From Candidatus Altimarinota bacterium (lineage in GTDB: Bacteria > Patescibacteriota > Gracilibacteria > 1-14-2-50-48-13), in NCBI GenBank assembly GCA_046314355.1, contig JBKBWQ010000001.1, forward strand, positions 736,001 to 800,000: a stretch of DNA of 64,000 nt, in the 5' to 3' direction. A program made the translations under genes and the position numbers. Within the stretch, counting starts at the first letter, position 1; each line of letters begins with the position of its first letter. Positions 8,693 through 30,895 of the stretch are shown here, piece by piece. The notes below the pieces were generated by a model, which worked only from the letters and a program-made list of their open reading frames with translations, was not told where the DNA came from and made no database searches.

Positions 8693-8822
8693 GTAATTGA
8701 GTAATTAAGTAATTAAGTAATTGGACTCAATAACTGGGCACTATAATTGGGCTGCAATAATTGAGCTCAATTATTGAGTCCAATGATAAGAGCCCAATAA
8801 TGTGCCCCAATTACTTCATTAC
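8693..8822. repeat. Modular palindromic intergenic element, copy 1
   Basis: Perfect 22-bp palindrome CAATAATTGAGCTCAATTATTG at 8755-8776, flanked by inverted ~13-nt units and GTAATTRA 8-mers. Confidence 0.85.
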
Positions 8823-8885
8823 TTTCTTTCTCTTACAAAAAAACCGCCTCAGCATTTCTGCTAAGACGGTTTCTTCTAAACACTA

Positions 8886-10700
8886 TTATCCTTGTGCTTC
8901 CGCTGTATCCTTAAGATACATGATTGGAGGATTCTCCGGCATAATAAATGCATCATCTTTGATTGTAGGAACTACAACCTTTACTTCCTGGGCTGGTGCA
9001 GTACTTCCCGCTGGTGTTGGGAATGTACCTGTAAATACAACTGCAGGAACGAAGAATTCATTTGGTGCTGTATAATAATCATTTCTACTATACTGTCGTA
9101 CAAGTACCTCTGCCTGCTCTGCTCTTGTAAGTGTTACTGTGATGTCAGCAGGTAGAGATGGAGGTGTTACTGTTCCGCCGTCAGCTGCAGGCATTGTAGT
9201 AGCATCCGGGGTACCATAGTAATAGTATGGTACATACGGCATATGGAGACCACCCTTAAGCGCTCCTGCTACGATTTCATTCCAAGATTTTGTATCATAG
9301 TTGGATGCAATTACTTCCTTATTTATCATTCCATTTACTGAATTAACTTTCATAGTAGCTGCGTTGATACCTACTGTGATCGCACTATCATAATATCCCC
9401 ACTCAGACATTACTTTCTTTCCGTCAATCATACGAGGAAAGTTTACAGTGTAATACTGTGGGAATGGATACTCTTCATTGGAGTTGTAAGGAATATAGTT
9501 CTTCCAGCTCATATCGACTTCTCCTGGAGCATATCCCTCGAGACTTACACCTTTCTGTGCAAGGAAATTCTGAGCTAACTGCGCAAGAGCAGCCGCGTTT
9601 GGTTCAGTCTTTAGACCATATACCTCTGGCGTATTCTGGATTGTCATCTTAGTCCAGTCTTCATACATGGAATAGTTTGCATTTGAAAGGTCAAGGTAGT
9701 ACTGATATCCACCTGTTACACCATCAGAGAAACTAATATTATTTACTTCAAGAGAAGAGTTTCCTCCAAAGAATTTAACAAACTCCTTAGGGACAATATC
9801 CTGGAGTTTGGAAGTCATGATCATCTGAACAGACTTTGGTATTGACTTATAAACCGGCATAGAAGCTGGGATATCCGTAAGTGCAGCACCGCTGAATGTA
9901 AATGTAATATTTGTCTGAGGTTCTGGCGCTCGTATCTTATCAATCATGTTTGCACCACTCTCAGTAAGTGGAGCGGAACCATCGACAGAAAGTCCTCCCC
10001 CTGCCCCCATACCACCTCCAGATTGAGATCTCTCAGGATTTTCTCCAAGAGCGATTTTTCCAAAAGCCTGGTTAGGCATAGTATTCAATGCATTTACATA
10101 TGAATAGACAATCTCTGCAGTCTCAGCTCGAGTGAGTTCCTTGTTTGGATTGAAAGAAATACCTGCAGGAATCAAGAATGTAGTAGATGCCCATTTTACT
10201 GCTGGATAAGACCAGTCGCTTGGCTGAACATCATTAAAGGAAATACTCTCTCTACTAGCTGTAAGTTCTGTACCAAGTAATGCGTAATGCATTCTGAAAA
10301 GCATAGTAAGAAACTCTGCCTTTGTTACATTATTACCAAGCTTGATCGTGTTATCACCGTATCCTTTGATAATACCAAAAGATGCTCCAGCTTTTAGATA
10401 TGGAGTATACCAATCCTCACCAGAGATATCAGCAAAGTTAAGCTCAATATCTTTTACCTGAGTCTCTTTAAATACTTGAGATGCTTTTAGAATAAGCTTC
10501 AAAGCTTCAGCACGGTTTAGGTTACTGTCCGGACGGAATAAGTTTGCGTTATTTTGAGAGACAATCTGTTTCTGCATCAAAACTTCTAATTTTGCAGAGA
10601 GACTTGTGTCTACATCTGTAAAAGCTGCAGATGCAAACGGCAGCATACTTGCCTGAATGGCAAAGATGGCAACCCCTGCGATACTTTTTCTATACTTCAT
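8886..10700 (-). CDS. S-layer homology (SLH) domain surface protein
   Basis: Signal peptide; FRPDSNLNRAEALK, VTKAEF, LTRAETA SLH motifs; unknown C-terminal domain. Confidence 0.85.
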   Translation of the reverse strand: MKYRKSIAGVAIFAIQASMLPFASAAFTDVDTSLSAKLEVLMQKQIVSQNNANLFRPDSNLNRAEALKLILKASQVFKETQVKDIELNFADISGEDWYTPYLKAGASFGIIKGYGDNTIKLGNNVTKAEFLTMLFRMHYALLGTELTASRESISFNDVQPSDWSYPAVKWASTTFLIPAGISFNPNKELTRAETAEIVYSYVNALNTMPNQAFGKIALGENPERSQSGGGMGAGGGLSVDGSAPLTESGANMIDKIRAPEPQTNITFTFSGAALTDIPASMPVYKSIPKSVQMIMTSKLQDIVPKEFVKFFGGNSSLEVNNISFSDGVTGGYQYYLDLSNANYSMYEDWTKMTIQNTPEVYGLKTEPNAAALAQLAQNFLAQKGVSLEGYAPGEVDMSWKNYIPYNSNEEYPFPQYYTVNFPRMIDGKKVMSEWGYYDSAITVGINAATMKVNSVNGMINKEVIASNYDTKSWNEIVAGALKGGLHMPYVPYYYYGTPDATTMPAADGGTVTPPSLPADITVTLTRAEQAEVLVRQYSRNDYYTAPNEFFVPAVVFTGTFPTPAGSTAPAQEVKVVVPTIKDDAFIMPENPPIMYLKDTAEAQG

Positions 10701-10764
10701 ATCGATATAAGTTAAGTGGATAGATTACACTTAAAAATACACCATTTCCAATAAATTTGCAACG

Positions 10765-11238
10765 TTATGGACGTGCACATCTTAGACATATATGCCTAAT
10801 CCTATAATCCATAAATACCACTGCTCCTAAAAGACAAAGAAGACTAAGTCCCTGCAGCACTCCAATATATGGAGATAAAAATTGGAGATTCACTGCAAGA
10901 CCAAAAAATACTAATATGCCAAGATTGCACACTGGACATAAAAGTACGAGAATACTGAGTACAAGCCCGACGCCTGAGAGAGATGCTTCCCTTTTAAGTA
11001 CTGTTTCCTTTGCCTCACCTATAAGATATGCAAACCCAGTGAGTATTAATGCAAATAAACATCCTGCACTACCGGCAAAAATAATATCTGTCGTACTGGG
11101 AGAGAGTGCCTGCATACTTTTAATATGTAAAAACGGCAGCTCAAATGCTCCTATTTGCCATAAAAGCACTACTTCCATACAGCACAGAAGCAGAAAGAAC
11201 AACATCAGAAACCTTGGATTTTTTAAAATTGAAAACAT
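10765..11238 (-). CDS. Membrane protein with CPVC and C-terminal CxxC motifs
   Basis: Four to five TM segments, CPVC, ICLRC. Confidence 0.65.
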   Translation of the reverse strand: MFSILKNPRFLMLFFLLLCCMEVVLLWQIGAFELPFLHIKSMQALSPSTTDIIFAGSAGCLFALILTGFAYLIGEAKETVLKREASLSGVGLVLSILVLLCPVCNLGILVFFGLAVNLQFLSPYIGVLQGLSLLCLLGAVVFMDYRIRHICLRCARP

Positions 11239-11241
11239 ATA

Positions 11242-11373
11242 CTACTGAATGATAAAGCTATTCTCCGGCATAATACATGCACTCGGAGCAGAAAATCCGA
11301 ACTGTAACACATAAAGTACAGCAAAAAGCAGTATAGGAAAAAGAAGTACTAGAAATATATGCTTATTTTTCAT
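11242..11373 (-). CDS. Small 43-aa single-TM protein not in the ORF track
   Basis: MKNKHIFLVLLFPILLFAVLYVLQFGFSAPSACIMPENSFIIQ*; fills the gap between neighbouring minus-strand genes. Confidence 0.55.
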   Translation of the reverse strand: MKNKHIFLVLLFPILLFAVLYVLQFGFSAPSACIMPENSFIIQ

Positions 11374-11611
11374 GTGTGTCATCTGTAGGACTAGTATTGA
11401 GCTTATATACCCAATGAAGTAGAGAGCATCCTACGAATGCTTCAAGCACCATAGAATAACTTGCCACAAGTATACTCCAAAATATAAATGGAGGTATATA
11501 GTCGATCAAGAAAAGAACAATAGTATTAATTGCAATACCAGTTCCAGCTCTAATAGCTCTACTTTTCCAGCCTATTCGACAGGCAATGAATCTATTAAAA
11601 TATCGTATCAT
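11363..11611 (-). CDS. Small membrane protein, DUF2892/YgaP-like
   Basis: IGWKSRAIR..G, two TM segments, EAFVGCSLL. Confidence 0.55.
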   Translation of the reverse strand: MIRYFNRFIACRIGWKSRAIRAGTGIAINTIVLFLIDYIPPFIFWSILVASYSMVLEAFVGCSLLHWVYKLNTSPTDDTHEK

Positions 11612-11682
11612 TGTAATTGTTAGCTCTAACTTTAGAATTATACCATATTTTCCTAGCTATTTGGATAATTTTCATAATTCTC

Positions 11683-11713
11683 TTTACCCTCACGTTAGGT
11701 AAGACTATATAGT
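11683..11713 (+). promoter_or_regulatory. MerR-type promoter with 19-bp spacer
   Basis: TTTACC-N19-TATAGT with dyad TTACC...GGTAA spanning -35 and spacer, directly upstream of the MerR gene. Confidence 0.6.
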
Positions 11714-11744
11714 CCTTACGTAGCTACATTTTACACACTTTATT

Positions 11745-12467
11745 ATGGAAAGCTGGAATATTGGTACCCTCGCAAAAATACTTGGGATCTCGGTACGTAC
11801 TCTTCATCACTATGAACAGATCGGTCTTCTCTCCTCTACCAAACGCGGACAGAATAATTACCGAATTTATAACAAAGAGAATCTTGCCGAGCTCCAGAAG
11901 ATTATATGTCTTAAATACCTTGGCTATAGTCTTAAAGATATAAAAAGTATGCTGCAGGATACCCGTCATACTCCTCTTGCCATAATAGATACTTCCTTGG
12001 AGAAAGTAGAGAAAGAGATCAGCGTACGGAAAGAGCTGTCTTTAAAGCTCTCACATCTCAAACGGTTTATGCAGCAGCATCAAGATATTTCTCCGGAAGA
12101 GTTTATCTCATTTATTTATTTTATGAATACTATGCAGGATCATTACACAGAAGAAGAAATGGACTTCTTTGAAAAGCGCAGAAAGGAAGTAGGAGAAGAA
12201 CGCATCAAAGAGGTTGAAAATGCGTGGCCAATACTCATACAAAAAGTCAAAGATGCTATGAAGAAAGGTCTAGATCCGAAGGATCCTTATGTGCAGACAC
12301 TAGCTACGCAGTGGAAAGGACTTGTTGCGGAATTTACAGGCGGCAATATACAGATAGAGAACAAAGTTAAAAATCTCTATGAAAAAAGCTATGAGCAGAA
12401 TACTCAAGTGTATGAAGGTGCCCCTACGAAGGAGATGATGGAATTTATCGGGAAAGCGATGCAGTAA
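11745..12467 (+). CDS. MerR-family transcriptional regulator with TipAS-like C-terminus
   Basis: IGTLAKILGISVRTLHHYEQIGLL, NNYRIY; GLDPKDPYVQTLATQW. Confidence 0.9.
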   Translation: MESWNIGTLAKILGISVRTLHHYEQIGLLSSTKRGQNNYRIYNKENLAELQKIICLKYLGYSLKDIKSMLQDTRHTPLAIIDTSLEKVEKEISVRKELSLKLSHLKRFMQQHQDISPEEFISFIYFMNTMQDHYTEEEMDFFEKRRKEVGEERIKEVENAWPILIQKVKDAMKKGLDPKDPYVQTLATQWKGLVAEFTGGNIQIENKVKNLYEKSYEQNTQVYEGAPTKEMMEFIGKAMQ

Positions 12468-12517
12468 GAAGTTTATGAAAGACTCTTTAGAATTCTAAAG
12501 AGTCTTTCATAAACTTC
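12468..12517. terminator. 50-bp perfect palindrome between convergent genes (probable bidirectional terminator)
   Basis: GAAGTTTATGAAAGACTCTTTAGAA|TTCTAAAGAGTCTTTCATAAACTTC. Confidence 0.65.
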
Positions 12518-12549
12518 ACTATAACAAATTGAAGTGGTGAATATTACAT

Positions 12550-13610: not shown

Positions 13611-13964
13611 CTACTTTCTTAAAAGTAGTTCTTTAATGAGTACTGAAAGCAATCTGGAAACTTGCTCTAAACTATTTTTTAAATATGATATCTGCTCAAT
13701 CGAAACAATACTTGTATCTTGAATAAGATCTAGAAGACTTGCACATTCGTAAGTAGAGCCGCGAGCAATAACATAAAAGTTTTTTCTATCATTCGGAGAT
13801 AATTTTCCAGTACCTTCAGCAATATTAATCACCATGCTTACTAATGCTCTTTGAAGTTGATCACGTATAATTGGCGTAAGCTTATAAAAAGGGATCTTAT
13901 TTTGAATAACTTGATAGGTTTCTCTCGCCTTCTTATATGCAATAAGTTTCTCAAAATCAAACAT
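13611..13964 (-). CDS. Four helix bundle protein (23S rRNA IVS/bAvd-like family)
   Basis: FEKLIAYKKA, DQLQRALVSMVINIAEG, FYVIARGSTYEC. Confidence 0.92.
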   Translation of the reverse strand: MFDFEKLIAYKKARETYQVIQNKIPFYKLTPIIRDQLQRALVSMVINIAEGTGKLSPNDRKNFYVIARGSTYECASLLDLIQDTSIVSIEQISYLKNSLEQVSRLLSVLIKELLLRK

Positions 13965-14072: not shown

Positions 14073-14113
14073 TACTAGTGACTAGATTCTAGTGACAGTC
14101 ACTAGTTACTAGT
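14073..14113. repeat. CTAGT(G/T)A-type short repeat cluster between tRNA-Pro and four helix bundle gene
   Basis: CTACTAGTGACTAGATTCTAGTGACAGTCACTAGTTACTAGT. Confidence 0.65.
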
Positions 14114-14127
14114 CCAGCTTCGCTGGA

Positions 14128-14203
14128 TGGTCGGGAAGACAGGACTCGAACCTGCAGCCCCGTGGTCCCAAACCACGTGCGCTACCAATTGCGCTACTTC
14201 CCG
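14128..14203 (-). tRNA. tRNA-Pro(TGG)
   Basis: CGGGAAG...TT-TGG-GA anticodon loop...GGTTCGAGTCC...CTTCCCGACCA; 76 nt with encoded CCA. Confidence 0.97.
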
Positions 14204-21041: not shown

Positions 21042-21111
21042 AATAATGATGCAATTGAAATACGCGATGAATAGTATAGGAAAAAGAAGAAAGGCTCAAG
21101 GGGGAAAAAAT

Positions 21112-21250
21112 AGGGCTCGAGTAATTGAGTAATTGGGGCTCATAATTTGGCGCACATTATTGGGCTGCAATAATTGAGCTCAATTATTTAATGATGTGAG
21201 CCAAATTACTGAGCCTAATTATTGAGCCCAGTTACCGAGCCCCAATTACT
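21112..21250. repeat. Modular palindromic intergenic element, copy 2
   Basis: GGGCTG-CAATAATTGAGCTCAATTATT core at 21168-21188 with inverted ~13-nt units. Confidence 0.85.
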
Positions 21251-21319
21251 TTTTCAAAGTCCTTGACCTTAAAGGTAAAACCAGGACAATGGGCTTATAT
21301 TTACGGTTTATCATTACTT

Positions 21320-22419: not shown

Positions 22420-22490
22420 GAGCAGCAAAATAATTGAGCTCAATTACTGAATGATGTGAGCCCAATTATTGAGCCCTAATTACCGAGCCC
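22420..22490. repeat. Modular palindromic intergenic element, copy 3 (core plus right arm)
   Basis: AATAATTGAGCTCAATTA at 22429-22446 then GAGCCCAATTATT-type units. Confidence 0.8.
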
Positions 22491-22495
22491 CACAC

Positions 22496-23203
22496 TTACC
22501 TATACTTCTTCATCTCCGCTCTCAGCTCCTTCCAATGAGGCATTGCACTCTCTACAATACTCCAGAATTTATCGGAGTGATTCATCTGCTGGAGATGAGC
22601 TACTTCATGCACGCAAACATATTCAAAGAGTTCTTCAGGCAGCAGAAGGGTCTTTAGAGATATACTTATATTCCCTCCTCCAGAGCAGCTCCCCCATCTT
22701 GATTCATTGTGGCGGATCTGTACATTTTCAAGTTTTTTATAGCCAAAATAATCAGTCCACTCTGCAATCACTTCTTCCACATAGGTTTGCAGGTACTTCC
22801 TTGCATAGGAAAGAAGAGCTTTTATGATCATCTCCAAAGTAATATGATCAGAGTATTCTGAGACTGGCACTAGGTGGATTGCACGGTCCAGCTTCGAGAT
22901 TTTGAATACAATTTTTGTTTCCTCCACAATAATCATGTTCCTGGCTCCCCAGCTTACAAAAATATCTACCGATTTATTGTGTACAAAATCAGCACGGGAG
23001 TTTTTTAATATCTGCCTCAAGATAAAAGTTCCCTGTTCCATCTTACTGAGCTTTGGAAGTATCCTGGAGAGCAGCTTATCAATATGTATTTTTCTCTCAC
23101 TCTCTGACAGAAACGAAGAAATACGAAGAATAACCTCGCCATTTCGTACATATGCTGAGGAATGTCTCTTGCGGACATATTCGATGTGAATCGGAGGGGA
23201 CAT
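22496..23203 (-). CDS. YgjP/DUF45 (M48-like) metallo-domain protein
   Basis: SRWGSCS, YVCVHEVAHL, NHSDKFW. Confidence 0.9.
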   Translation of the reverse strand: MSPPIHIEYVRKRHSSAYVRNGEVILRISSFLSESERKIHIDKLLSRILPKLSKMEQGTFILRQILKNSRADFVHNKSVDIFVSWGARNMIIVEETKIVFKISKLDRAIHLVPVSEYSDHITLEMIIKALLSYARKYLQTYVEEVIAEWTDYFGYKKLENVQIRHNESRWGSCSGGGNISISLKTLLLPEELFEYVCVHEVAHLQQMNHSDKFWSIVESAMPHWKELRAEMKKYR

Positions 23204-23213: not shown

Positions 23214-23322
23214 CAATTAATTTATTGGACTCAATAATTGAGCTCAATTATTGAGTCCAATTATACTACCCAATGTACTAAATTCAATTACCAATTACTC
23301 AATTACTATTTACTTAATTACT
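23214..23322. repeat. Modular palindromic intergenic element, copy 4
   Basis: Perfect 38-bp palindrome ATTGGACTCAATAATTGAGCTCAATTATTGAGTCCAAT at 23224-23261, then CAATTAC repeats. Confidence 0.85.
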
Positions 23323-23328
23323 TCCCCC

Positions 23329-23718
23329 CTACTTCACCTCAAACGGCGCACTCACATGCGGTGTTCCCTTGATCTGTATCAGGAGCGCATCTCCTTTTTC
23401 TAGCATCTGCTGATCTTGTACTGCTGTACAAGCACATCCAGCAGGAGAAGTACATGGAGGTATTACTATATCTGAACGAGTAAGCTGTGTATTTGAAGTA
23501 TTGAGAGCTTCTGAGTACTGAAAACATCCCTGAATCATTCCGTACTGTCCGGGGCATTTATCATCTGAGGCATCATCAAAGCCGTCTCTGTCTGCGTCTA
23601 TAGCAACTGTAGTCTGCGCATAGGTACTATCAATATATATTACTGCACATGAGAAGAGCAGAAACGAGAAACTGCACAGTATAATAAGTTTATTTCTTAA
23701 GTTCGCCACAGTCATCAT
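23329..23718 (-). CDS. Secreted Cys-rich protein with thrombospondin type-3-like Ca-binding motif
   Basis: Signal peptide; DADRDGFDDASDDKCP; CTSPAGCAC; overlaps upstream gene. Confidence 0.65.
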   Translation of the reverse strand: MMTVANLRNKLIILCSFSFLLFSCAVIYIDSTYAQTTVAIDADRDGFDDASDDKCPGQYGMIQGCFQYSEALNTSNTQLTRSDIVIPPCTSPAGCACTAVQDQQMLEKGDALLIQIKGTPHVSAPFEVK

Positions 23719-25057
23719 TGATACGATGTAAATGAGTCAGACATACAAAGGTAAAATCGTCTGCAGAGGAAGCGCTGGTATTATTTATACGGGAAAGAGT
23801 ATCTGTCATCTGATCCATTTTACCAAGAAAATATTGAGTTGTCTCATATTTTCCTAAAGTATCGTAGTTCTTTGCCATATACTGTTCAAGAGCCTCTTCT
23901 TTCTGTCTATCAACAGTATACACCTGTTGGCTGTAAGTTACAGGGATATCTGTAAGAGATTTTCTTGTGATCTTTCCTGTAGTTGCATCTATCTGGACGA
24001 TTTGATCCTGCAGCTGCGTAAAGGTAAAATTATTTACTGGTGCACCATTGAGACGGAGAGTATCGTTGAACCCCGCAAGTTTTCTAGCAGCCTCGGTAAA
24101 CTCAGTAAGCGGAATTCCAATAACTCCTTCAAGGACATTTCTTGCAAAAGTTCTCTCTTCTCCTTTCTGTATACCTTGCCCAGTAATAATCGTACTGCCG
24201 TCTGGTCCTCTGACTTTTATCTGACCAAGTAATTCATTGAGATCAAATTTAATTGTAGAGAGACTCATAACTGCATCTCCAAACTCTTCAGCCGTCTCAC
24301 TGATGGAGGAGACAGCCTGGGTAAGGTTATCGAGAGAATAGTTAATATCATCTAAACCATATTCCTGCGACTGACAAGATGTCAAAGATGCATCCTTGTA
24401 GTCCTTTATATATGAGAAAGGATTCTGATTCTTAGTCGCAGTTGTGTAGCGGGCTAAAACCGCATTTGTTACCGCGCTAAGCGTACCATCAAGACCATTT
24501 GGATAGTAGGCGGTGGTCTGGTCAGACTGCATCATCCAGAGATAGAGCTGTCTGTAGGCAAGGTATCTGGCTTGGATGTCCTGATAGAGTGGAAGTGTCT
24601 GTATCTTTTCTCCCTGCATCACGTCTGTCACATTAATAGACATACATGCATCCATAGACTTATTCATAAGACCTCTCATTTCTTCCAGCTGTTTTTCAGC
24701 TAATTCCACATCCTGTAGAAGTAATGCTGAGGTTTTTGTATTTGATCCATTGAGAGCAGTTCTTATCGTATTAATAGTAGGATCACCATATTTCTCTAGA
24801 AAAGCTTTTGAAAGCTGATCTTCCTTGGCACTTATAGAAGTCAGATCCAGTCCGAATACAGTTATCTTAGGGATAATACATCCCTTTTGCTGAAGGAGAT
24901 CCCGAACTGCTGCATTGTAAGCTTCCATTTCTATGAGATAAGTCCTTGTTACTTTTGGAGTTACACAAAGGGCTTCCTTTGCATAGCTCACTCCTGGTAC
25001 AAGCAGGAAGCACCAGAGGAGAAAAAATATTCTAATTATATGAGTTGTATATTTCAT
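23690..25057 (-). CDS. Secreted hypothetical protein
   Basis: Signal peptide ending VSYA; helical; several Cys; starts 2 nt after upstream stop. Confidence 0.8.
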   Translation of the reverse strand: MKYTTHIIRIFFLLWCFLLVPGVSYAKEALCVTPKVTRTYLIEMEAYNAAVRDLLQQKGCIIPKITVFGLDLTSISAKEDQLSKAFLEKYGDPTINTIRTALNGSNTKTSALLLQDVELAEKQLEEMRGLMNKSMDACMSINVTDVMQGEKIQTLPLYQDIQARYLAYRQLYLWMMQSDQTTAYYPNGLDGTLSAVTNAVLARYTTATKNQNPFSYIKDYKDASLTSCQSQEYGLDDINYSLDNLTQAVSSISETAEEFGDAVMSLSTIKFDLNELLGQIKVRGPDGSTIITGQGIQKGEERTFARNVLEGVIGIPLTEFTEAARKLAGFNDTLRLNGAPVNNFTFTQLQDQIVQIDATTGKITRKSLTDIPVTYSQQVYTVDRQKEEALEQYMAKNYDTLGKYETTQYFLGKMDQMTDTLSRINNTSASSADDFTFVCLTHLHRINDDCGELKK

Positions 25058-25059
25058 AG

Positions 25060-26622
25060 TTAGTTGTGTTGAACTTTAGTACTAGCAAAGTTTTTGCTTA
25101 TTTTCTTCAGAGCTTCCATCTGAGTAAGTAAAGCCTGCAGTTCTTCAGTCAAATGTGTAAGCTGTCCACCGATCACTTCTTCATAATCAGTGAGATTCTT
25201 GGCATTGATTTGCTGCGTTTGAAGTTTTATAGCTAACTCTTTGGTTTCCTTCTGTTTAGCTAGCATATTGGCATATTGAGCTGCATAATCACCAGAAGCA
25301 ATATTTGCAGGTGCGACCGCATCAGAAGCATTATTACTACCTGCTACAGCATTCCACATCTTTCCAAGCAGTCCAATAAGATCAGGATCAGTAAAGTCTG
25401 CCTTATCCACCCTAGGAACGATAGGAACCCATGAAATCTGCAGAAAGTTATCCGGCACTTCAAACTTTAAGTCCTGCCACCCAAAGCTAAAGATAGCCCG
25501 AGGTTCATTTTTCAGCTGCAGATTCTGTGCAGAGAGCTCTGATGTAGCATCAGAAAGCTTTGTAAGACTTGTTCTCAATGCAGGACTATCTAGGCCTACT
25601 CGTCTTGTGGTAAACATAGTGCCTGCTTCATCAGCAAATCCTGTTTGAAAATAGACTTTAATACAGAAAGATTCCCAAAGACAATTCCACTTATCTAAGT
25701 TTTCAACAGTCCCATTTATACTTTGCTGAGCATCATTCAGGATTTTTTGAGCAGCACTCAGAATATTTGATGTATCTTTTTTTAGAACAGCTTCGTTGTC
25801 AAAAGATGGATCTGGTGTAGTCTTTGCTCTTTCAAAACGTGCAAAACTCTTTGAAATAGCTTCCTTCTCCGGCTCAGAGAAGGTCTGCGTACTAGCTGTC
25901 ACAGGAGCTGCACCGGGCAATGGACAAAATCCAAGAGTATTCGGATCAGTATTTGAGAAAGAAAAACTCTTCATAGTATCCGCAAGGCTTGAAGCGGGTA
26001 CTTGTACATACTCAGGTTTATACCAGTTTCCTGTGAGATATTTTGCATCTGGAGATATATCCCTTGTCCATCCTGGAAGTTCTCGGTCCTTTGCACCATT
26101 AATTTTTTCCTTCAATAGTGCGATATCGTTCAAAAGATCAAATCCTGAATTTTTGGTATCGCCGTCAGAAAATACATTTTGATACCGTATGCTTGAAATT
26201 TTCTGTCCAAAGCGCTCATTTAAGGCAGTAATTTCCTCACATTTTTTCTGATAATGTGTACTGTCATTAATTCCCTGAGTAGTTCCCTGCACACTTGATA
26301 CCCCACCTGCAGTTTTCGGCAGACAGTTTTGAGGTAGAAGGCGTGAGAGAGCACTATCTGTAAATTTTGTCAGTCCTTCTTTTCTATCATGTTCAAGCAG
26401 ACGCTGCATTTCGATCATAGTCTGTTTTGGAACAAATTCACGCACCTCCTTATCTATTCTGAAATACTGAGATTTCAGAGGAGAGTCCAGTAATGAAACC
26501 CCTGGGGTATTCTTTAGAAGAGCAAATAGTTTATCATCTTGTTCATCTGCAAAAGCAGTATGAGAAAACAATACTCCGATTCCAAGGACGATACCTAGTT
26601 GTAGAAGTAGTTTATATGACAT
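25060..26622 (-). CDS. Secreted hypothetical protein with C-terminal coiled coil
   Basis: ATG 26622 directly after upstream stop; signal peptide ending AFA; heptad-rich C-terminus. Confidence 0.8.
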   Translation of the reverse strand: MSYKLLLQLGIVLGIGVLFSHTAFADEQDDKLFALLKNTPGVSLLDSPLKSQYFRIDKEVREFVPKQTMIEMQRLLEHDRKEGLTKFTDSALSRLLPQNCLPKTAGGVSSVQGTTQGINDSTHYQKKCEEITALNERFGQKISSIRYQNVFSDGDTKNSGFDLLNDIALLKEKINGAKDRELPGWTRDISPDAKYLTGNWYKPEYVQVPASSLADTMKSFSFSNTDPNTLGFCPLPGAAPVTASTQTFSEPEKEAISKSFARFERAKTTPDPSFDNEAVLKKDTSNILSAAQKILNDAQQSINGTVENLDKWNCLWESFCIKVYFQTGFADEAGTMFTTRRVGLDSPALRTSLTKLSDATSELSAQNLQLKNEPRAIFSFGWQDLKFEVPDNFLQISWVPIVPRVDKADFTDPDLIGLLGKMWNAVAGSNNASDAVAPANIASGDYAAQYANMLAKQKETKELAIKLQTQQINAKNLTDYEEVIGGQLTHLTEELQALLTQMEALKKISKNFASTKVQHN

Positions 26623-26623
26623 A

Positions 26624-27595
26624 TTATTTACCTTTATTTTTATCTCCGTCCACGGAGGAATTTGGAAGTTTATAGCGCAGCTGATCCATGACTCGAGCCA
26701 TTCTATCAAATTGAGTAGTGGTTTCTTTTAGCTGCTTCTTCATGTAGGTGTATTGAAGATGCTGAGGGTAGCTTAGAAAAAATTCCTGATACCACTCCAG
26801 CATGTTGTCATCTACCATATCAGCAAGCTTACTTTCCTGAGCTTTAAACGTAGTCAGGTTTACTCCTGATAGTGCTGCTCCAAGGTTTGTACCACCAGAG
26901 GTATTCTTTTGTTCTTTAGGCGCGTTATTTGAAAGGATAGTCAGAGCATCCTTGTAGTTTCTTGTTTCATAAAACAGACGGAAACGCAGTATAGTAAGAG
27001 GATTTTCTTCATCAGGAATCGCTACTTCTGCCGGAGAGCTACCTGCCGCTTTCTTCTTGTCCTCTGCCTGCTTGACCCGGAATTCACTCACACTTTTCTT
27101 TATACCTGCACGCTCAGCATCAGTATACTGAAAAGAATATTCAGGAAGATCCTTATCTGATGCCTGCTTTTTACCAAGATTCTCACAAATACCTGCAGAA
27201 GCATCTCCCCCATCAAGCACTGCTAGAGCAGAACATATCTGGTATTGAGTAAAATAAATATCCTTCGCTATTGTTGCAGAAAGATTCAAACACTCAGCAG
27301 ACATGGAATATGGTTTTGGATCAAACTCATCAGGAGTAAGTACTTTACTCATCTTATTGTCGTAATAGTATTGTACCGCAAGAACCGAAGCATCCACATA
27401 ACAGCTTTGCGCCTGTGCATGATAATTTCTTAGGTATTGAAATTTGGTAGAAGTATCAAAACCTGCGTCCAAAATTCTACTATATCCATCTCCTCTTGGT
27501 GGTTCTACGGCTTTCGAAGTAGAAAAAGCATTATATGAGAGTAATGTACATTGCAGAATACCTATAATAAAAATTGTTTTTGTTGTGAGTTTCAT
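26624..27595 (-). CDS. Secreted hypothetical protein
   Basis: Signal peptide; Cys pairs; long amphipathic C-terminal helix. Confidence 0.8.
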   Translation of the reverse strand: MKLTTKTIFIIGILQCTLLSYNAFSTSKAVEPPRGDGYSRILDAGFDTSTKFQYLRNYHAQAQSCYVDASVLAVQYYYDNKMSKVLTPDEFDPKPYSMSAECLNLSATIAKDIYFTQYQICSALAVLDGGDASAGICENLGKKQASDKDLPEYSFQYTDAERAGIKKSVSEFRVKQAEDKKKAAGSSPAEVAIPDEENPLTILRFRLFYETRNYKDALTILSNNAPKEQKNTSGGTNLGAALSGVNLTTFKAQESKLADMVDDNMLEWYQEFFLSYPQHLQYTYMKKQLKETTTQFDRMARVMDQLRYKLPNSSVDGDKNKGK

Positions 27596-27604
27596 AGTTG
27601 TAGA

Positions 27605-28276
27605 TTATTGACCTGCGTTTTGACCGGTAATCAGATAATTAACTCCTTGGATTATCTTATCTAGCCGCCCCCTTACTATTTCAAAATCCTCATTGAAGCT
27701 TCTCAGAGCAAGATTGAGATCCTCAATAGCCTTTGCATAAGCATAGGTCTTTTTAGTATTCATATCCCAGCTCGCAAAACTTAGAATGATATTCTCATAC
27801 TTCTCCCGTATATTTTCAACCTTTAATATACACTGATCCCGCAGTGTCTTTCTTTGGAGCTCATTTGTATTATTCAAAGGGCTTTTATCAGTTGGGGCTA
27901 CCTTTTCAGGACGGCATGCAGTAACTCTCTGGCTTGCAGGGATAGGAGCGTCTGGACTGAGATTTCTCTGGCATATTTCTTCAGCATCCGTAGTGAGATT
28001 GATGAGACCAGTTTTAGCACGTATGAGAAGCTCCATAGTGGGAACATCTGCAAACTGACCATACTCTGTCAGGGTGCCCTCAAAAGCAGTGGTCCTTTGA
28101 GCAAAGATAGTATCTATGCCAGCACTGCATTTCTGAGCCTCAGGACTGAATGCCTGAGCATTTTGAGTTACAGGCGTATCCTGTGCTTTGACCGACTGCA
28201 CCAAAAAAAACAATACCACAAGTACCTGTAGAAAAATAATCGCGGCTAGAGAAAGTTGTTGGAAAAATTTACCCAT
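27605..28276 (-). CDS. Secreted hypothetical protein, first gene of operon
   Basis: Signal peptide ending VKA; four Cys; C-terminal amphipathic helix. Confidence 0.8.
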   Translation of the reverse strand: MGKFFQQLSLAAIIFLQVLVVLFFLVQSVKAQDTPVTQNAQAFSPEAQKCSAGIDTIFAQRTTAFEGTLTEYGQFADVPTMELLIRAKTGLINLTTDAEEICQRNLSPDAPIPASQRVTACRPEKVAPTDKSPLNNTNELQRKTLRDQCILKVENIREKYENIILSFASWDMNTKKTYAYAKAIEDLNLALRSFNEDFEIVRGRLDKIIQGVNYLITGQNAGQ

Positions 28277-28342
28277 AGAATATGTAGAAATACATTCATA
28301 CTATTTTATCAAAGGCAAAGCTAAAAAGCCATTACTCCCCCT

Positions 28343-29059
28343 TTACAAATTGTTGTATTTCTCGAAGAAGATATGTTCTTTCATAATTCCCTGGGATAAA
28401 AGAAGATTTTTCACATCGTCGATCATACTTCCGCTTCCACAAATATAGAAATCCGTATCTTCCGCATGTTCATTATTTTTCTCAAGATAATGAGTCACTC
28501 GTCCTACAAAGTTACTGCACTCTCCTTCAGGTCTTGAGACGCAAGGAGCAAAAGTAAAATGCTCTCCTTCCTTTGAAGAAAAGTACTCTATGTAGCAGAG
28601 ATCCTTCAAAAAACTCACTCCAAAAAGCAAAGTTGAATGTCTCGTATCTCCTTTACTCCACATATCCTCGAGCATGGCTTTGAAAGGTGCAACTCCAGTG
28701 CCTGTAGCAATAAATACAATAGGATGGTCATTCTGCTGAAGAGTAAACCTTCCCGCCGGTCCCACAAACTGAATACTCTCTCCTATTTGAATATGCGGGA
28801 AATACCCATCTGTCGCTCTTCCCTCGGGAATACGCTTGTAGCATAGCTCAAATCTTCTACTGCTGTCAGGACCAGAGGAAATAGAATACTGACGCATCAC
28901 CATCTTCTCATCCTCATGTCGTGCCGGAACCTCTATAGATACAAACTGCCCTGCCTGGTATGAAAAATCAAACTGTGGTGGTACCTCAAATACAAGCTCA
29001 AAAACATCATCTGTTAATACTCTCCTTTCAACCAATACTGCTTCTTTCTTAAAAGACAT
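28343..29059 (-). CDS. Ferredoxin-NAD(P)+ reductase-like FAD/NAD oxidoreductase
   Basis: GQFV, RQYSISS, GPAGRF, IATGTGVAPF, YICG, FFEKY. Confidence 0.92.
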   Translation of the reverse strand: MSFKKEAVLVERRVLTDDVFELVFEVPPQFDFSYQAGQFVSIEVPARHEDEKMVMRQYSISSGPDSSRRFELCYKRIPEGRATDGYFPHIQIGESIQFVGPAGRFTLQQNDHPIVFIATGTGVAPFKAMLEDMWSKGDTRHSTLLFGVSFLKDLCYIEYFSSKEGEHFTFAPCVSRPEGECSNFVGRVTHYLEKNNEHAEDTDFYICGSGSMIDDVKNLLLSQGIMKEHIFFEKYNNL

Positions 29060-29133
29060 AGTCCATGTACATAAAATAAGTACGGACATAGTAGCAAAAG
29101 AGGGAGAAGGGATCAAGGGGGGAATTGGGGAAA

Positions 29134-29255
29134 GGCTCGATGATTAGGGCTCATTATTGGGCTCAATCATTAGGGGCTCTTATAATTGGGCTGCAATAAT
29201 TGAGCTCAATTATTTAATTATTGAGTCCAATTATGTGCGCCCAATTACCGAGCCC
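29134..29255. repeat. Modular palindromic intergenic element, copy 5
   Basis: CAATAATTGAGCTCAATTATT core at 29194-29214 with inverted units. Confidence 0.85.
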
Positions 29256-29258
29256 TTT

Positions 29259-30245
29259 CTACATCGTGAAAAACAATCCATTCACCGTTGTCAGAAAGAG
29301 CTTAATAAGGAATAGGAGTGCGAGTCCCATAAGCACCTGCTGAAGCTGCTTATAGACTTTTTTAACTGCCTCTTCCCCGCTACCTCCTCCTTTATACATA
29401 ATCTCTACTCCGCAATAAATGATCATTCCTACACCAGCGGCAATAAGAAACGGCTGGATCAGAAAGAAGAAATACCCCACAAGGCTGAAAATAATATCAA
29501 ATCCTCCCGTAGTCTTAAGAGCGATAGCATTACAGTATTTCACGTTACCTGCTTCCGATGCCTTCTTTACATCAATAAACGGCTTTGGAGTTTTACCATC
29601 AAGTGTCACTCCGGTAGAGTATCCGCCATCGGGTATGATACTGATACAGAGTGCATTTGTAGTAGCCTTGATAGTCTCAAGAGACACTGGATCAATAAAC
29701 TCCTGACATGCATATGAGCTTGCCTCAGTATTTATAGTATTACTTGTTCCTGTAGCTGCAGTATTTCGCTCTCCGGCTCTTACTGCTAATTCAAACAATT
29801 CGCAGGGTCCCATGAGCAGTTTTTTGGTACAAGAGATTACTCCTGATTTATTACTTCCAGTGATTCCAGGAGAGCTGCAAATTCCCTCATTACCAAAAAT
29901 CTGCTGAGGTTTTTGACAAGAGTTCGCTTGACCTGGGTTTGGATCACAACCAATTTTAGTCTGCATTAGTGGTGTATTTTCAATATCATTCAGCTCTTGT
30001 CTTGCTTGATCAAACATAGCATCGGCTTCTCTCGCAGCTCGATCGAGTGAAGTACCTTCAAAAGATGTATCCATTCCAGATATGCCAGATCCAAGGCTAT
30101 TAATATTGCTAGAGGACTGGTCAAAACCATTTTGAAAAAACGCGGCTTTTGTCGTAAAGTTATTTAAAGAAAGTGTACTAACTATTGTAAATACTATTAA
30201 AAGAAAAATTCTCGAACATAATGTGATACTCTTTGTTTTCATCAT
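29259..30245 (-). CDS. Cys-rich protein with C-terminal T4SS-pilin (TrbC/VirB2-like) hairpin
   Basis: Signal peptide, Cys-rich middle, GVGMIIYCG...VLMGLALLF two-TM end. Confidence 0.7.
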   Translation of the reverse strand: MMKTKSITLCSRIFLLIVFTIVSTLSLNNFTTKAAFFQNGFDQSSSNINSLGSGISGMDTSFEGTSLDRAAREADAMFDQARQELNDIENTPLMQTKIGCDPNPGQANSCQKPQQIFGNEGICSSPGITGSNKSGVISCTKKLLMGPCELFELAVRAGERNTAATGTSNTINTEASSYACQEFIDPVSLETIKATTNALCISIIPDGGYSTGVTLDGKTPKPFIDVKKASEAGNVKYCNAIALKTTGGFDIIFSLVGYFFFLIQPFLIAAGVGMIIYCGVEIMYKGGGSGEEAVKKVYKQLQQVLMGLALLFLIKLFLTTVNGLFFTM

Positions 30246-30688
30246 GTAGTCTGCAAAAAGCTAAATACAACTCTCGCAATCGTAAAAGAAGAGAAGGAGA
30301 CTATTATACCAATCACAGCATTCTTGATCGCAGTCTGCCCTTTCTTGTTGTCTTTTCCTTGGTTGAGAATGTACTGATATCCTGCATAAATGATCCCCAG
30401 AAGCCCTAAGGTTCCTAAGATATTAAAGAAAAAACCAAGCATGTACTGAAGATAAAAAATGACATCTTCAAGTCCCATACGTCCGCACTTGATCTTCAAT
30501 GCAAGCCATTTACTTGGATGCGGATCTACTTTTAAACGGTTAATCAGCTCAATACAGTTCGCAGGTACATCTCCTCCCAAGTCCTGAGTCGGAAGAATAG
30601 ACGTAGCAATAGCCGATGCAGATGGCATCGAAGCAGTATTCAGCAGACAGAGCGAGACAAGGAATGAAAAGAGAAAACGCTTGAACAT
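30242..30688 (-). CDS. T4SS-type pilin (TrbC/VirB2-like)
   Basis: GLLGIIYAGYQYI...KGQTAIKNAVIGIIV; ATGA overlap with next gene. Confidence 0.78.
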   Translation of the reverse strand: MFKRFLFSFLVSLCLLNTASMPSASAIATSILPTQDLGGDVPANCIELINRLKVDPHPSKWLALKIKCGRMGLEDVIFYLQYMLGFFFNILGTLGLLGIIYAGYQYILNQGKDNKKGQTAIKNAVIGIIVSFSSFTIARVVFSFLQTT

Positions 30689-30751
30689 GAATGGAATGAG
30701 AAACTGAGATTCTCTTTAGTATACCAGAAAGGAAGAGAAAGTGGAAGGGGG

Positions 30752-30895
30752 CAATAATTGGGCTCAATAATTAAGGCTCGTTATTGTGCTCTTGTTATTG
30801 GACTCAATAATTAGGGGCTCATTATTGGGCTGCACGAATTGAGCTCAATTACTTAATTATTGAGTCCAATTATGTGCACCCAATTACTTGAGCCC
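30752..30895. repeat. Modular palindromic intergenic element, copy 6
   Basis: About six AATAATTGGGCTC-like units, core AATTGAGCTCAATT at 30837-30850, reversed units after. Confidence 0.85.

What the first reader, a model, noticed from the sequence alone, without database searches (positions are those of the whole stretch)
8693..30895. Dispersed family of modular palindromic elements centred on AATTGAGCTCAATT
Seen: six copies (8693, 21112, 22420, 23214, 29134, 30752) plus a degenerate one at 59853, all intergenic and 70-145 bp. Each is built from 12-15-nt units (consensus AATAATTGGGCTC) that flip orientation (GAGCCCAATTATT) across a perfect palindromic centre of up to 38 bp, sometimes capped by GTAATTGA/TCAATTAC 8-mers. 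Specific variants recur in the same order and orientation (GGGCTGC left of centre; GAGTCC, GTGC(G/A)CCC and TACCGAGCCC on the right), while unit number and mix differ per copy. This does not fit a CRISPR array, simple VNTR or fixed-sequence REP. Inference: a non-autonomous hairpin element or iterated protein-binding array whose units are shuffled or re-synthesised by an unknown mechanism.
Basis: partly seen in the sequence, partly recalled or inferred. Interest (0 to 1): 0.8.

Follow-up and report, generated by a model that had tools for sequence, protein, structure and literature searches.

The report
Modular palindromic repeats in CPR bacterium
Several gaps between genes in an uncultured candidate-phyla-radiation bacterium are filled by a real family of hairpin-forming, non-coding repeats built from 13-base units; it looks like an unusual relative of the selfish intergenic repeats known in other bacteria, and nothing points to a new mechanism.

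Summary
Six exact AATTGAGCTCAATT cores were found against 0.79 expected. All 25 in-element hits to the 13-nt unit point toward the core: + strand on the left, - strand on the right. Perfect central palindromes are 14-38 bp, and the elements fold as long imperfect hairpins. All copies are intergenic under codes 11 and 25. The host is a CPR bacterium with standard code, allied to Gracilibacteria by FtsZ.

The copies share one modular plan. A 34-nt block is 34/34 identical between two copies 20 kb apart. They differ mainly by presence or absence of whole units. Unit scores show no decay from centre to edge. This fits copying of a composite element followed by slippage-type unit gain and loss. It does not fit shuffling or re-synthesis.

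No match was found in Rfam, plasmids, phages or the papers searched. An 18-mer core scan of 185,579 species genomes gave only 8 chance hits.

Best reading: a lineage-specific, REP/BIME/BOX-like palindromic repeat acting at the DNA level. The mobilising or binding protein is not in the window. An iterated protein-binding array remains a live rival. The source genome and its relatives could not be scanned.

The parts
8693..8836 (+). Copy 1. Reading left to right: 3 x GTAATTRA 8-mers; units GTAATTGGACTC / AATAACTGGGCAC / TATAATTGGGCTGC; core AATAATTGAGCTCAATTATT (22-bp perfect palindrome); units GAGTCCAATGATAA / GAGCCCAATAAT / GTGCCCCAATTAC; TTCATTAC; pyrimidine tail.
   Evidence: Sequence. DNA fold -34.0 kcal/mol, z -9.3. 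It lies between a - strand terminator hairpin at 8838-8878 and a promoter-like site for cysS at 8684-8656.
21090..21255 (+). Copy 2. GGCTC-type outer units, one 8-mer pair, units with GGGGCTC / GGCGCAC / GGGCTGC, the core (20-bp perfect palindrome), module TAATGATGT, then four GAGCC(C)-type units ending CGAGCCCCAATTAC.
   Evidence: Sequence. DNA fold -36.1, z -7.6. It sits between the divergent genes engB (start 21041) and ddl (start 21263).
22426..22499 (+). Copy 3. The left arm is missing. Core (16-bp perfect palindrome), module GAATGATGT, then three right-arm units ending CGAGCCCCACACTTAC.
   Evidence: Sequence. Weak fold: -10.0, z -2.1. It fills the 87-nt gap between the convergent genes ddl (stop 22408) and the YgjP-like gene. 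The TAA stop of that gene (22496-22498) lies in the element's terminal TTAC.
23214..23329 (+). Copy 4. A 38-bp perfect palindrome, ATTGGACTCAATAATTGAGCTCAATTATTGAGTCCAAT, followed on the right only by a degenerate unit and about five (T)CAATTAC 8-mers.
   Evidence: Sequence (I12). DNA fold -18.3, z -5.9. It lies between the YgjP-like gene start (23203) and the stop of ORF 23329-23718.
29121..29258 (+). Copy 5. Five left units, the innermost being TTATAATTGGGCTGC; core (20-bp perfect palindrome); module TAATTATT; then GAGTCCAATTAT / GTGCGCCCAATTAC / CGAGCCC.
   Evidence: Sequence. DNA fold -31.0, z -6.5. Positions 29181-29214 are 34/34 identical to 8742-8775 (D3). The element abuts the stop codon of ORF 29259-30245.
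30753..30900 (+). Copy 6. Seven left units; the outermost (30753) is a perfect consensus AATAATTGGGCTC. Core (14-bp perfect palindrome), module TAATTATT, then GAGTCCAATTAT / GTGCACCCAATTAC / TTGAGCCC / TCTTAC.
   Evidence: Sequence. DNA fold -36.1, z -6.9. The right half matches copy 5 at 48/51. The TAA stop of the SLH/RlpA/CAP gene (30898-30900) lies in the terminal TCTTAC.
59852..59975 (.). Degenerate relative. Inverted arrays of 8-mers (GTAATTGA-like on the left, ACTCAATT-like on the right) flank a roughly 55-nt AT-rich centre. There are no 13-nt units and no central core. The right end reads TTGAGCTC.
   Evidence: Sequence (I5: 30-nt arms, 80% complementary, 55 nt apart). DNA fold -16.2, z -4.5. 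It sits in the divergent gap between the PilT/KH-type ATPase gene and ftsA.

Best explanation
This is a lineage-specific family of composite, non-coding palindromic repeats. In kind it is REP/BIME/BOX/MITE-like, but its arms are built from iterated 13-nt units ([AT-rich 7-mer][GRGCTC]) and 8-nt units (GTAATTGA).

The dispersed entity is one composite element with a fixed order of unit variants. It was copied to several intergenic spacers, mostly close to one another. Each copy has since gained or lost whole units by slippage or unequal exchange between its tandem units.

The element acts at the DNA level, as a cruciform or a single-strand hairpin. The strictly conserved core AATTGAGCTCAATT, and in 4 of 6 copies the asymmetric GGGCTGC next to it, is the likely recognition site of a protein encoded outside the window: either the enzyme that copies the element or a host protein that binds it.

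Shown here: the family, its anatomy, its hairpin potential, the shared module order, the single orientation and the local clustering.

Inferred: mobility, slippage as the source of unit-number differences, and the existence of a recognising protein.
For: Statistics of core and units.

Hairpins: DNA fold z -5.9 to -9.3 for 5 of the 6 core-bearing copies, -2.1 for the truncated copy 3 and -4.5 for the degenerate one (50 mononucleotide shuffles each).

The same variants occur in the same order at unrelated loci. 34/34 identity between copies 20 kb apart (D3). No similarity between the flanking genes. Together these point to a composite element that was copied, not one built independently at each site.

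The closest pairs are neighbours: copies 5 and 6 at 48/51, copies 2 and 3 at 50/57 in the right half. Five of the 6 gaps of >=20 nt between 21.0 and 30.9 kb hold a copy; clustering P is about 0.012-0.015, chosen post hoc. This is as local copying would give.

All 6 orientable copies face the same way (two-sided P = 0.03). They lie in a stretch where GC skew keeps one sign in 28 of 32 2-kb windows. This is compatible with strand-specific, single-strand-based spread of the kind reported for IS608 and ISDra2 (PMC6006769, abstract in listing).

Copies occur in tandem, convergent and divergent gene contexts. Copy 1 lies between a terminator and a promoter-like site. This fits neutral parking of DNA better than one fixed regulatory role.

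The same window carries a (TTAC)12 microsatellite and a heptamer array, so short-unit slippage does occur in this genome.

The 18-mer core is absent, beyond 8 chance hits, from 185,579 species-representative genomes, so the family is not widespread.
Against: No transposase, RAYT or recombinase linked to the element is in the window. The only Y1 transposase (36665-37087) is IS200-type and has unrelated CCCCGGAG...CTCCGGGG end hairpins found nowhere else in the window.

No target-site duplication could be read, and the element boundaries are fuzzy. No empty site could be examined.

Only 6-7 copies from one 64-kb window were seen. Genome-wide number, spread and orientation are unknown.

The 14-nt core is invariant in 6 of 6 copies while the arms differ by 10-25%. 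Two of the 7 copies sit in divergent promoter regions. Both facts would also fit a selected binding site.

Each copy's left arm matches its own right arm no better than the right arms of other copies, so there is no sign that the hairpin itself is being maintained.
Confidence: 0.5

Rival explanations
1. Iterated protein-binding arrays. The units are half-sites, and the core is a full site, for a dimeric DNA-binding protein such as a ribbon-helix-helix or HTH operator or centromere protein. The arrays would organise transcription or chromosome segregation near dnaA.
For: The core is a perfect 14-nt palindrome, invariant in 6 of 6 copies. The flanking units look like weaker half-sites.

The 8-mer arrays read as ACTC/ACTT boxes separated by 4-bp AT-rich spacers, in inverted sets. 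An example is 59932-59967: ACTT TATT ACTC AATT ACTC TCTT ACTC AATT ACTT. [quoted passage not shown]

The copies are clustered 7-31 kb from dnaA. Copies 2 and 7 lie between divergent genes. Copy 1 lies just upstream of a promoter-like site.
Against: No RHH, ParA/ParB-like or other candidate binding protein was found next to any copy. 60 ORFs were scanned with NCBIfam and 47 with Pfam. Small ORFs in the gaps were read by eye only.

Copy 3 lies between convergent genes, and copies 4-6 abut stop codons. The periods of 13 and 8 nt are not in helical phase with each other. The ACTC likeness is four bases and may be chance. The number of units varies from 0 to 7 per arm.
Confidence: 0.2
2. RNA-level element. 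Transcribed inside operons, the long hairpin would serve as a terminator, a 3' stabiliser or an RNase III-type processing site between cistrons, as reported for REP, ERIC and Correia-type repeats (recalled, not read here).
For: Copies 3-6 fill the whole space between gene ends, with no other terminator. RNA folds reach -59 to -70 kcal/mol for copies 1, 2, 5 and 6. On both strands the hairpin is followed by a pyrimidine-rich tract, with T5-T6 runs beside copies 2 and 3.
Against: Copy 1 lies downstream of a canonical terminator (18-bp stem + U7, -26.7 kcal/mol, z -7.5) and upstream of the next promoter-like site. Copies 2 and 7 lie between divergent genes. These three are probably not transcribed.

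For copies 5 and 6 the neighbouring genes are on the - strand, yet the + strand RNA folds better (-63.0 vs -48.9; -69.8 vs -57.5).

Elsewhere the genome uses ordinary A/T-flanked terminator hairpins. The terminator scan shows no excess: 10 found against 6.8 expected.
Confidence: 0.12
3. Each locus builds its own palindrome in place by an unknown process, for example growth from the centre by repeated fold-back synthesis, or self-insertion of a 20-nt palindrome at GAGCTC with a 6-bp duplication. Units would be re-synthesised or shuffled.
For: Self-insertion of AATAATT-GAGCTC-AATTATT at its own GAGCTC would reproduce 13-nt units that flip orientation at a perfect centre (inference). The centre is always the most perfect part.
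Against: There is no age gradient. Weight-matrix scores do not fall from centre to edge, and the outermost unit of copy 6 (30753) and the first right unit of copy 3 (22458) are perfect consensus at 22.1 bits.

Outer units share GGGCTC/GAGCCC, not the central GAGCTC.

Locus-independent growth would not give the same variant order at different loci, nor a 34/34 identical asymmetric block.
Confidence: 0.06
4. Recombination sites of a gene-cassette array, in the manner of integron attC sites. These are imperfect palindromes in one orientation at the 3' ends of cassettes.
For: All copies share one orientation. Sizes are 75-150 bp. Four right ends abut stop codons. Five of 6 consecutive gaps are occupied. 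The genes between copies 4, 5 and 6 have no known family.
Against: No integrase was found among the ORFs scanned. No RYYYAAC / GTTRRRY end motifs were seen in the sequences (motif recalled). The flanked genes include the housekeeping genes ddl, engB and cysS, and one 'cassette' is inverted.
Confidence: 0.03

Closest known systems
REP / BIME of enterobacteria and pseudomonads (RAYT-associated) and REPINs
   Same: Abundant-type intergenic imperfect palindromes. They often form composite structures and have hairpin potential. They are thought to be moved by a single-strand Y1 (HUH) enzyme with strand bias (PMC2817692, PMC3116915, PMC6006769: abstracts in listing).
   Different: REPs are 20-40 bp single hairpins carrying a GTAG or CGTC tag (PMC3733652, title and abstract in listing). 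In BIMEs the REPs alternate in orientation. Here the arms are runs of 13-nt and 8-nt units all pointing one way, with a single flip. GTAG is present in only 2 of 6 copies, and in both it is the neighbour gene's TAG stop. No RAYT is in the window.
BOX elements of Streptococcus pneumoniae (boxA-boxBn-boxC)
   Same: A modular composite repeat whose size varies through the number of an internal tandem module. It folds into a stem-loop, and its mobilising enzyme is unknown (PMC3049150, passages).
   Different: BOX has one kind of internal module, in direct orientation, between two different end modules. Here the repeated modules themselves form the two arms of the palindrome. Sequence likeness to BOX was not tested.
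MITEs with long inverted arms (Correia/NEMIS, ERIC, RUP)
   Same: Size of about 100-150 bp, non-coding, AT-rich, inverted arms, intergenic, sometimes overlapping gene ends (features as listed in PMC3049150 Background).
   Different: There are no defined terminal inverted repeats with sharp ends. No target-site duplication was read. No parent IS with matching ends is in the window. The arms are internally repetitive.
ParG operator OF / parH centromere of plasmid TP228 (ribbon-helix-helix arrays)
   Same: Arrays of degenerate ACTC tetramer boxes separated by 4-bp AT-rich spacers, in direct and inverted orientation, about 100 bp long (PMC3130281, passages). The 8-mer arrays here read ACTC-AATT-ACTC-....
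   Different: The known case is a plasmid locus next to parFG. Here there are 6-7 chromosomal sites with no par genes nearby. The 13-nt units and the palindromic core have no counterpart in parH.
Integron attC sites
   Same: Imperfect palindromes of variable length, in one orientation, at the 3' ends of genes, recombined as folded single strands (recalled).
   Different: There are no R''/R' core motifs and no integrase. Housekeeping genes are flanked.

Membership tests
REP (RAYT-associated) | Short (20-40 bp) single imperfect palindrome | tested here: not met
   The elements are about 75-150 bp, with 0-7 units per arm. Only the 14-38-bp centre is REP-sized.
REP (RAYT-associated) | Conserved GTAG or CGTC tetranucleotide at one end of the hairpin | tested here: not met
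   By reading: GTAG (as CTAC on +) is found at the right end of 2 of 6 copies (copies 4 and 5). In both it is the TAG stop of the adjacent gene. There is no CGTC.
REP (RAYT-associated) | A RAYT gene in the genome, usually flanked by the REPs | tested here: inconclusive
   The window holds one Y1 transposase. It scores IS200 110 bits (cut-off 55) and REP_Tyr_transpos 27 bits (cut-off 80). Its end hairpins are unrelated. The rest of the genome could not be searched.
BIME | Regularly spaced REPs in alternating orientation with defined linkers | tested here: not met
   All 25 in-element unit hits point toward the centre, giving one orientation flip per element.
MITE | Terminal inverted repeats with defined ends plus target-site duplication | tested here: inconclusive
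   The arms are inverted, but the ends grade into purine-rich and pyrimidine-rich flanks. No consistent flanking direct repeat was seen by eye. No empty site was available.
MITE | A parent IS with matching ends | tested here: not met
   The only IS in the window (IS200-type, 36606-37207) has different ends. The remainder of the genome was not testable.
BOX-like modular repeat | Variable number of an internal tandem module between conserved parts | tested here: met
   Unit number is 0-7 on the left and 3-5 on the right, with a conserved core and conserved variant order. This is a likeness in how it works, not homology. No sequence comparison with BOX was made.
RHH operator/centromere array (ParG OF/parH type) | Tetramer boxes at 8-bp period with AT-rich spacers, direct and inverted | tested here: met
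   Met for the 8-mer arrays only against PMC3130281 passages. The 13-nt units do not fit this layout.
RHH operator/centromere array (ParG OF/parH type) | Cognate RHH and ParA-type genes beside the array; binding shown | tested here: not met
   No such family was found among the ORFs scanned. Binding cannot be tested with these tools.
Integron attC | R''/R' core sites and an IntI integrase | tested here: not met
   No such end motifs were seen (motif recalled). No integrase was found.
CRISPR array | Identical direct repeats separated by unique spacers of similar length | tested here: not met
   Units abut without spacers and flip orientation.
Any Rfam RNA family | Match at or above the gathering score | tested here: not met
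   The whole window gave only tmRNA and tRNA. With permissive settings on 20.9-31.0 kb there were 3 matches to miRNA families at 22-24 bits against cut-offs of 70-80 and E 0.49-0.77, which is chance level.

The most novel reading that the evidence does not exclude
The elements are a new kind of self-propagating palindrome in a streamlined CPR genome. A folded single-strand hairpin carries a conserved apex (AATTGAGCTCAATT) and a conserved asymmetric bulge (GGGCTGC). A so far unknown strand-specific enzyme recognises it, copies it to nearby intergenic sites and can add or remove 13-nt units. Alternatively, they are a chromosomal set of ribbon-helix-helix-type centromere or operator arrays spread around the origin region. 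Either would be a first for Patescibacteria.
Probability: 0.12. Interest if true: 0.8.

Novelty: new variant of a known kind. Interest (0 to 1): 0.45.

Why it matters
CPR/Patescibacteria genomes are small and tightly packed. Four searches of the held library for MITE, REP or palindromic-repeat families in them listed no paper whose title or abstract start describes one. Passages of the Peribacteria genome paper mention no such element.

A hairpin repeat that fills 5 of 6 consecutive intergenic gaps shows that selfish or structural repeat DNA can persist even here. It is also a handle for several practical questions: strain typing by unit number, assembly breaks in metagenomes, and a hunt for the enzyme or binding protein that recognises the invariant core.

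If the arrays turn out to be binding sites near dnaA, they would bear on how these bacteria organise or segregate their chromosome. As it stands, this is a well-supported descriptive finding, not a new mechanism.

Tried and rejected
1. Alternative code. The FtsZ relatives are named Gracilibacteria, so table 25 was tried. The long genes have no in-frame TGA and several end at TGA consistent with their Pfam domain ends. The code is standard and the elements stay intergenic.

2. Link to the IS200-type transposase at 36665-37087. Its CCCCGGAG...CTCCGGGG hairpins occur only at its own two ends and are unlike the element. Rejected.

3. Restriction avoidance of the GAGCTC centre. 21 observed against 23.4 expected. 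Rejected.

4. DnaA-box clusters, to place oriC for the strand test. 20 matches against 18.2 expected, with no cluster. The origin could not be placed, so only the GC-skew sign is available.

5. Promoter or terminator content. 28 promoter-like sites against 23.7 expected and 10 terminator-like against 6.8 in 20.9-31.0 kb. No excess, although TTGAGC of the core serves as a -35-like hexamer in 3 of the 28.

6. Centre-outward age gradient, as nested self-insertion would predict. Not seen.

7. Homogenisation between the two arms of one copy. A copy's own arms match no better than arms of other copies. One possible compensatory pair exists in copy 2, TTTGG on the left and CCAAA on the right.

8. Segmental duplication as the source of the similar neighbouring copies. 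The flanks are unrelated.

9. A binding-protein gene nearby. No RHH or Par family was found in the ORFs scanned. The 33 small ORFs in the gaps were only read by eye.

10. Defence or phage origin of the unknown genes between copies 4, 5 and 6. 0 of 12 proteins hit PADLOC. 1 of 12 hit PHROGs, weakly, and that protein lies elsewhere in the window.

11. Searches elsewhere.
- 18-mer core in genome contigs: 8 loci against about 9 expected by chance for a palindromic 18-mer in 596 Gb (my arithmetic). None has units nearby, 0 of 8.
- blastn of copy 5 against plasmids and phages: no match.
- Motifs in papers: the ten best-ranked of 113 papers held only the 11-mers, as primers for human genes. None held the 14-mer core or the 8-mer dimer.

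12. The AGTATAGGAA block at the left of copies 1 and 2 was first taken for an element end. It also occurs alone at 11330 and 52591, upstream of other - strand genes. It reads as a -10-like box on the - strand. It is therefore host promoter sequence, not part of the element.

Full report
OBSERVATION.

- The 14-mer AATTGAGCTCAATT occurs exactly six times (8759, 21172, 22432, 23236, 29198, 30837). Expected 0.79; 0 of 100 shuffles reached the 7 matches found at <=2 mismatches.
- The 13-nt unit AATAATTGGGCTC has 26 matches at <=2 mismatches against 2.33 expected. 25 of the 26 lie in the six elements. All 25 obey one rule, + strand left of the core and - strand right of it.
- The 8-mer pair GTAATTGAGTAATT has 13 matches against 1.23 expected. 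12 of the 13 lie in copies 1, 2, 4, 6 and the degenerate copy near 59.9 kb.
- The perfect palindromes at the centres are 22, 20, 16, 38, 20 and 14 bp long.
- The named variants recur as stated.
- A weight-matrix scan built from the units found no further cluster. Of 46 hits, 39 were in the six copies, 1 in the degenerate copy and 6 were isolated, which is about what the threshold allows by chance.

ANATOMY (read). A unit is an AT-rich 7-mer (AATAATT, ATTATT, TATAATT) followed by a G-rich 6-7-mer (GGGCTC, GGACTC, GGGGCTC, GGGCGCAC, GGGCTGC).

- Left of the centre, units run head to tail in this orientation. At the centre AATAATT-GAGCTC-AATTATT the orientation flips. The right arm is made of GAGCCC/GAGTCC/GTGCRCCC + AATTATT-type units.
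- Outside the 13-mers, some copies carry runs of the 8-mer GTAATTGA (left) or TCAATTAC (right). The 13-mer looks like this 8-mer plus five bases.
- Further out, the + strand is purine-rich on the left and pyrimidine-rich on the right, which lengthens the potential stem.
- As single-stranded DNA, + strand, the regions fold at -34.0, -36.1, -10.0, -18.3, -31.0 and -36.1 kcal/mol, and -16.2 for the degenerate copy. The z-scores are -9.3, -7.6, -2.1, -5.9, -6.5, -6.9 and -4.5 against 50 mononucleotide shuffles each.
- The palindromes are not symmetric. GGGCTGC stands only on the left (4 of 6 copies). An 8-9-nt module (TAATTATT or KAATGATGT) stands only on the right (4 of 6). Copy 3 has no left arm, and copy 4 has 8-mers on the right only.

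HOST AND SETTING.
- FtsZ of the window is closest to unnamed metagenome proteins (95%, then about 80-83% identity). Among named ones it is closest to 'Candidatus Gracilibacteria' and 'Patescibacteria group' proteins at about 66-73%. The window's own FtsZ sits on a contig of 1,619,055 bp.
- Table 25 was tested and rejected. Long genes have no in-frame TGA, and several end at TGA where their domains end.
- The window starts at dnaA (79-1566, - strand). GC skew of the + strand is negative in 28 of 32 2-kb windows. About two thirds of the ORFs are on the - strand. No DnaA-box cluster was found, so the origin could not be placed.
- Coding density is high, with 13% intergenic.

Contexts of the copies:
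- Copy 1 lies upstream of cysS. It sits between a canonical terminator of the preceding SLH-protein gene (18-bp stem + U7, -26.7 kcal/mol, z -7.5) and a promoter-like site (TTTACT-17-TACAAT).
- Copy 2 lies between the divergent genes engB and ddl.
- Copy 3 lies between the convergent genes ddl and a YgjP-like gene.
- Copies 4, 5 and 6 lie between co-directional - strand genes. Their right ends abut or contain the upstream gene's stop codon.
- The degenerate copy lies between a divergent PilT/KH-type ATPase gene and ftsA.
- Elsewhere in the window, intergenic hairpins are ordinary A/T-flanked terminators.

HOW THE COPIES RELATE.
- The variants keep one order: GGGGCTC, then GGGCGCAC-type, then GGGCTGC, then the core on the left; GAGTCC, then GTGCRCCC, then (TAC)CGAGCCC on the right.
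- Positions 8742-8775 and 29181-29214 are 34/34 identical, and copy 2 is 94% identical over the same block (D3). The genes around the copies are unrelated.
- The right halves of copies 5 and 6 match at 48/51, and those of copies 2 and 3 at 50/57. Most other pairs match at about 78-90%, though register slippage among repeated units inflates these figures. So the most similar copies are neighbours.
- Five of the six gaps of >=20 nt between 21.0 and 30.9 kb hold a copy. Drawing six of the window's 53 gaps at random gives a range this small in 1.5% of trials, and five within 9.7 kb in 1.2%. Both statistics were chosen after seeing the data.
- All six orientable copies face the same way (two-sided binomial P = 0.03).
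- Unit scores show no fall from centre to edge. The outermost unit of copy 6 and the first right unit of copy 3 are perfect consensus.
- A copy's left arm matches its own right arm no better than the right arms of other copies.

ELSEWHERE.
About 9 are expected by chance for a palindromic 18-mer in 596 Gb (my arithmetic). None of the 8 has a unit nearby. So neither the source genome nor any genome carrying this exact core is in that collection.
- Copy 5 has no blastn match in 72,556 plasmids or 50,697 phage records.
- Rfam gives nothing beyond chance.
- In the paper library, the ten best-ranked hits for four motifs held only the 11-mers, as human-gene primers.
- Searches combining CPR/Patescibacteria/Peregrinibacteria with palindromic, MITE, REP or repeat-element terms listed no paper whose title or abstract start describes such a family. 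Passages of the Peribacteria genome paper mention only origin-proximal short repeats (PMC4736985).
The source genome and its relatives therefore stayed unchecked.

INTERPRETATION. The shared order of variants and the identical asymmetric block show that a composite element was copied between loci. Each locus did not build its own. Differences in unit number are whole-unit gains and losses. That is the expected behaviour of tandem units, and the same window holds a (TTAC)12 microsatellite and a heptamer array. It is also the behaviour reported for boxB modules in BOX elements (PMC3049150, passages). A centre-growth model is contradicted by the lack of an age gradient and by outer units sharing GGGCTC, not the central GAGCTC.

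Copies 1, 2 and 7 sit where transcription is not expected. For copies 5 and 6 the strand that is not the mRNA strand folds better as RNA. So a DNA-level role is more likely than an RNA one.

I therefore read the family as a lineage-specific palindromic repeat of the REP/BIME/BOX/MITE kind. It spreads locally and in one orientation. Its invariant core is the probable recognition site of a protein encoded outside the window (confidence 0.5).

The main rival (0.2) is an iterated binding array. The invariant palindromic core flanked by half-site-like units, the ACTC-AATT periodicity of the 8-mers (like ParG's OF/parH; PMC3130281, passages), the clustering 7-31 kb from dnaA and the promoter-adjacent copies all fit it. 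Against it are the copy between convergent genes, the copies abutting stop codons, the variable unit numbers and the absence of any candidate protein gene.

An RNA-level role (0.12), in-place generation (0.06) and attC-like sites (0.03) are less likely, for the reasons given under rivals.

COMPARISON AND NOVELTY. The element works like the known small intergenic palindromic repeats, but it fails the membership tests of each named family.
- It is not REP-sized and has no GTAG/CGTC tag.
- It does not alternate in orientation as a BIME does.
- It has no sharp terminal repeats, no target duplications and no parent IS as a MITE would.
- It has no attC core sites.
- Its closest functional analogue is the modular BOX element. 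Its closest architectural analogue for the 8-mer arrays is an RHH operator.

Arms made of iterated 13-nt units that flip once at a strictly conserved palindrome are, as far as these searches show, undescribed. No such family surfaced for CPR bacteria either. I rate it a new variant of a known kind, interest 0.45. It is solid and unusual in form, but it rests on 6-7 copies from one window, with no evidence for a new mechanism. What would decide between mobility and binding is listed under next steps.

Noticed in passing
window 58299-58346: A perfect (CTTA)12 = (TTAC)n microsatellite directly abuts the 3' end of the PilT/KH-type ATPase gene (58344-59810, - strand). TTAC is also the last four bases of the 8-mer TCAATTAC and of several element right ends.
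   Followed up: partly
window 14073-14113: An array of about six heptamers (TACTAGT / GACTAGT) lies immediately beside tRNA-Pro (14128-14203, - strand).
   Followed up: no
window 8658, 11330, 21073, 52591 (+ strand): The motif AGTATAGGAA occurs 24-92 nt upstream of four - strand genes (cysS, ORF 10765-11238, engB, umuD). At 11330 and 21073 it extends to 17 identical bases, AGTATAGGAAAAAGAAG. On the - strand it reads as a -10-like TATACT/TACAAT box.
   Followed up: partly
window 52603-52620: The palindrome TTGTGTTTTTTATACAA lies just upstream of the umuD-umuC pair (52567-50895, - strand). It may be an SOS-type operator.
   Followed up: no
window 36606-37207: A complete-looking IS200-type element. 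It has a 140-aa Y1 transposase (IS200 110 bits) flanked by CCCCGGAG...CTCCGGGG hairpins at 36612-36640 and 37153-37201. It is unrelated to the palindromic family.
   Followed up: yes
window 12468-12517: A 50-nt perfect palindrome (25-nt arms, no spacer) lies right after the MerR-family gene 11745-12467 (I2).
   Followed up: no
window 13611-13964: A four-helix-bundle protein of the 23S rRNA-intervening-sequence family (TIGR02436 / PF05635). No element copy lies next to it.
   Followed up: partly
window 23329-28276 and 29259-30688: Eight consecutive - strand ORFs, bracketed by copies 4, 5 and 6, lack informative family matches. They have no hit in NCBIfam, PADLOC or PHROGs. The only Pfam hit is a weak T4SS-pilin-like match for 30242-30688.
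   Followed up: partly
whole window: FtsZ places the organism nearest Gracilibacteria-labelled CPR genomes, yet TGA is a stop here (standard code). At least seven proteins carry SLH domains. These are 8886-10700, 14932-16833, 30898-33573, 47622-50822, 52792-53643 and 55282-56166 by Pfam, plus others by weaker NCBIfam hits.
   Followed up: partly
window 8931-8952 and 11260-11281: A 22-nt direct repeat, ATTCTCCGGCATAATA(A/C)ATGCA, is 95% identical between its two copies. One copy lies inside the 3' part of the SLH gene and the other in the gap upstream of ORF 10765-11238 (D17).
   Followed up: no
window 1-64000: dnaA sits at the left edge on the - strand. However, + strand GC skew stays negative across nearly the whole window, and there is no DnaA-box cluster. 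The origin may not be adjacent to dnaA, or skew may be gene-strand driven.
   Followed up: partly
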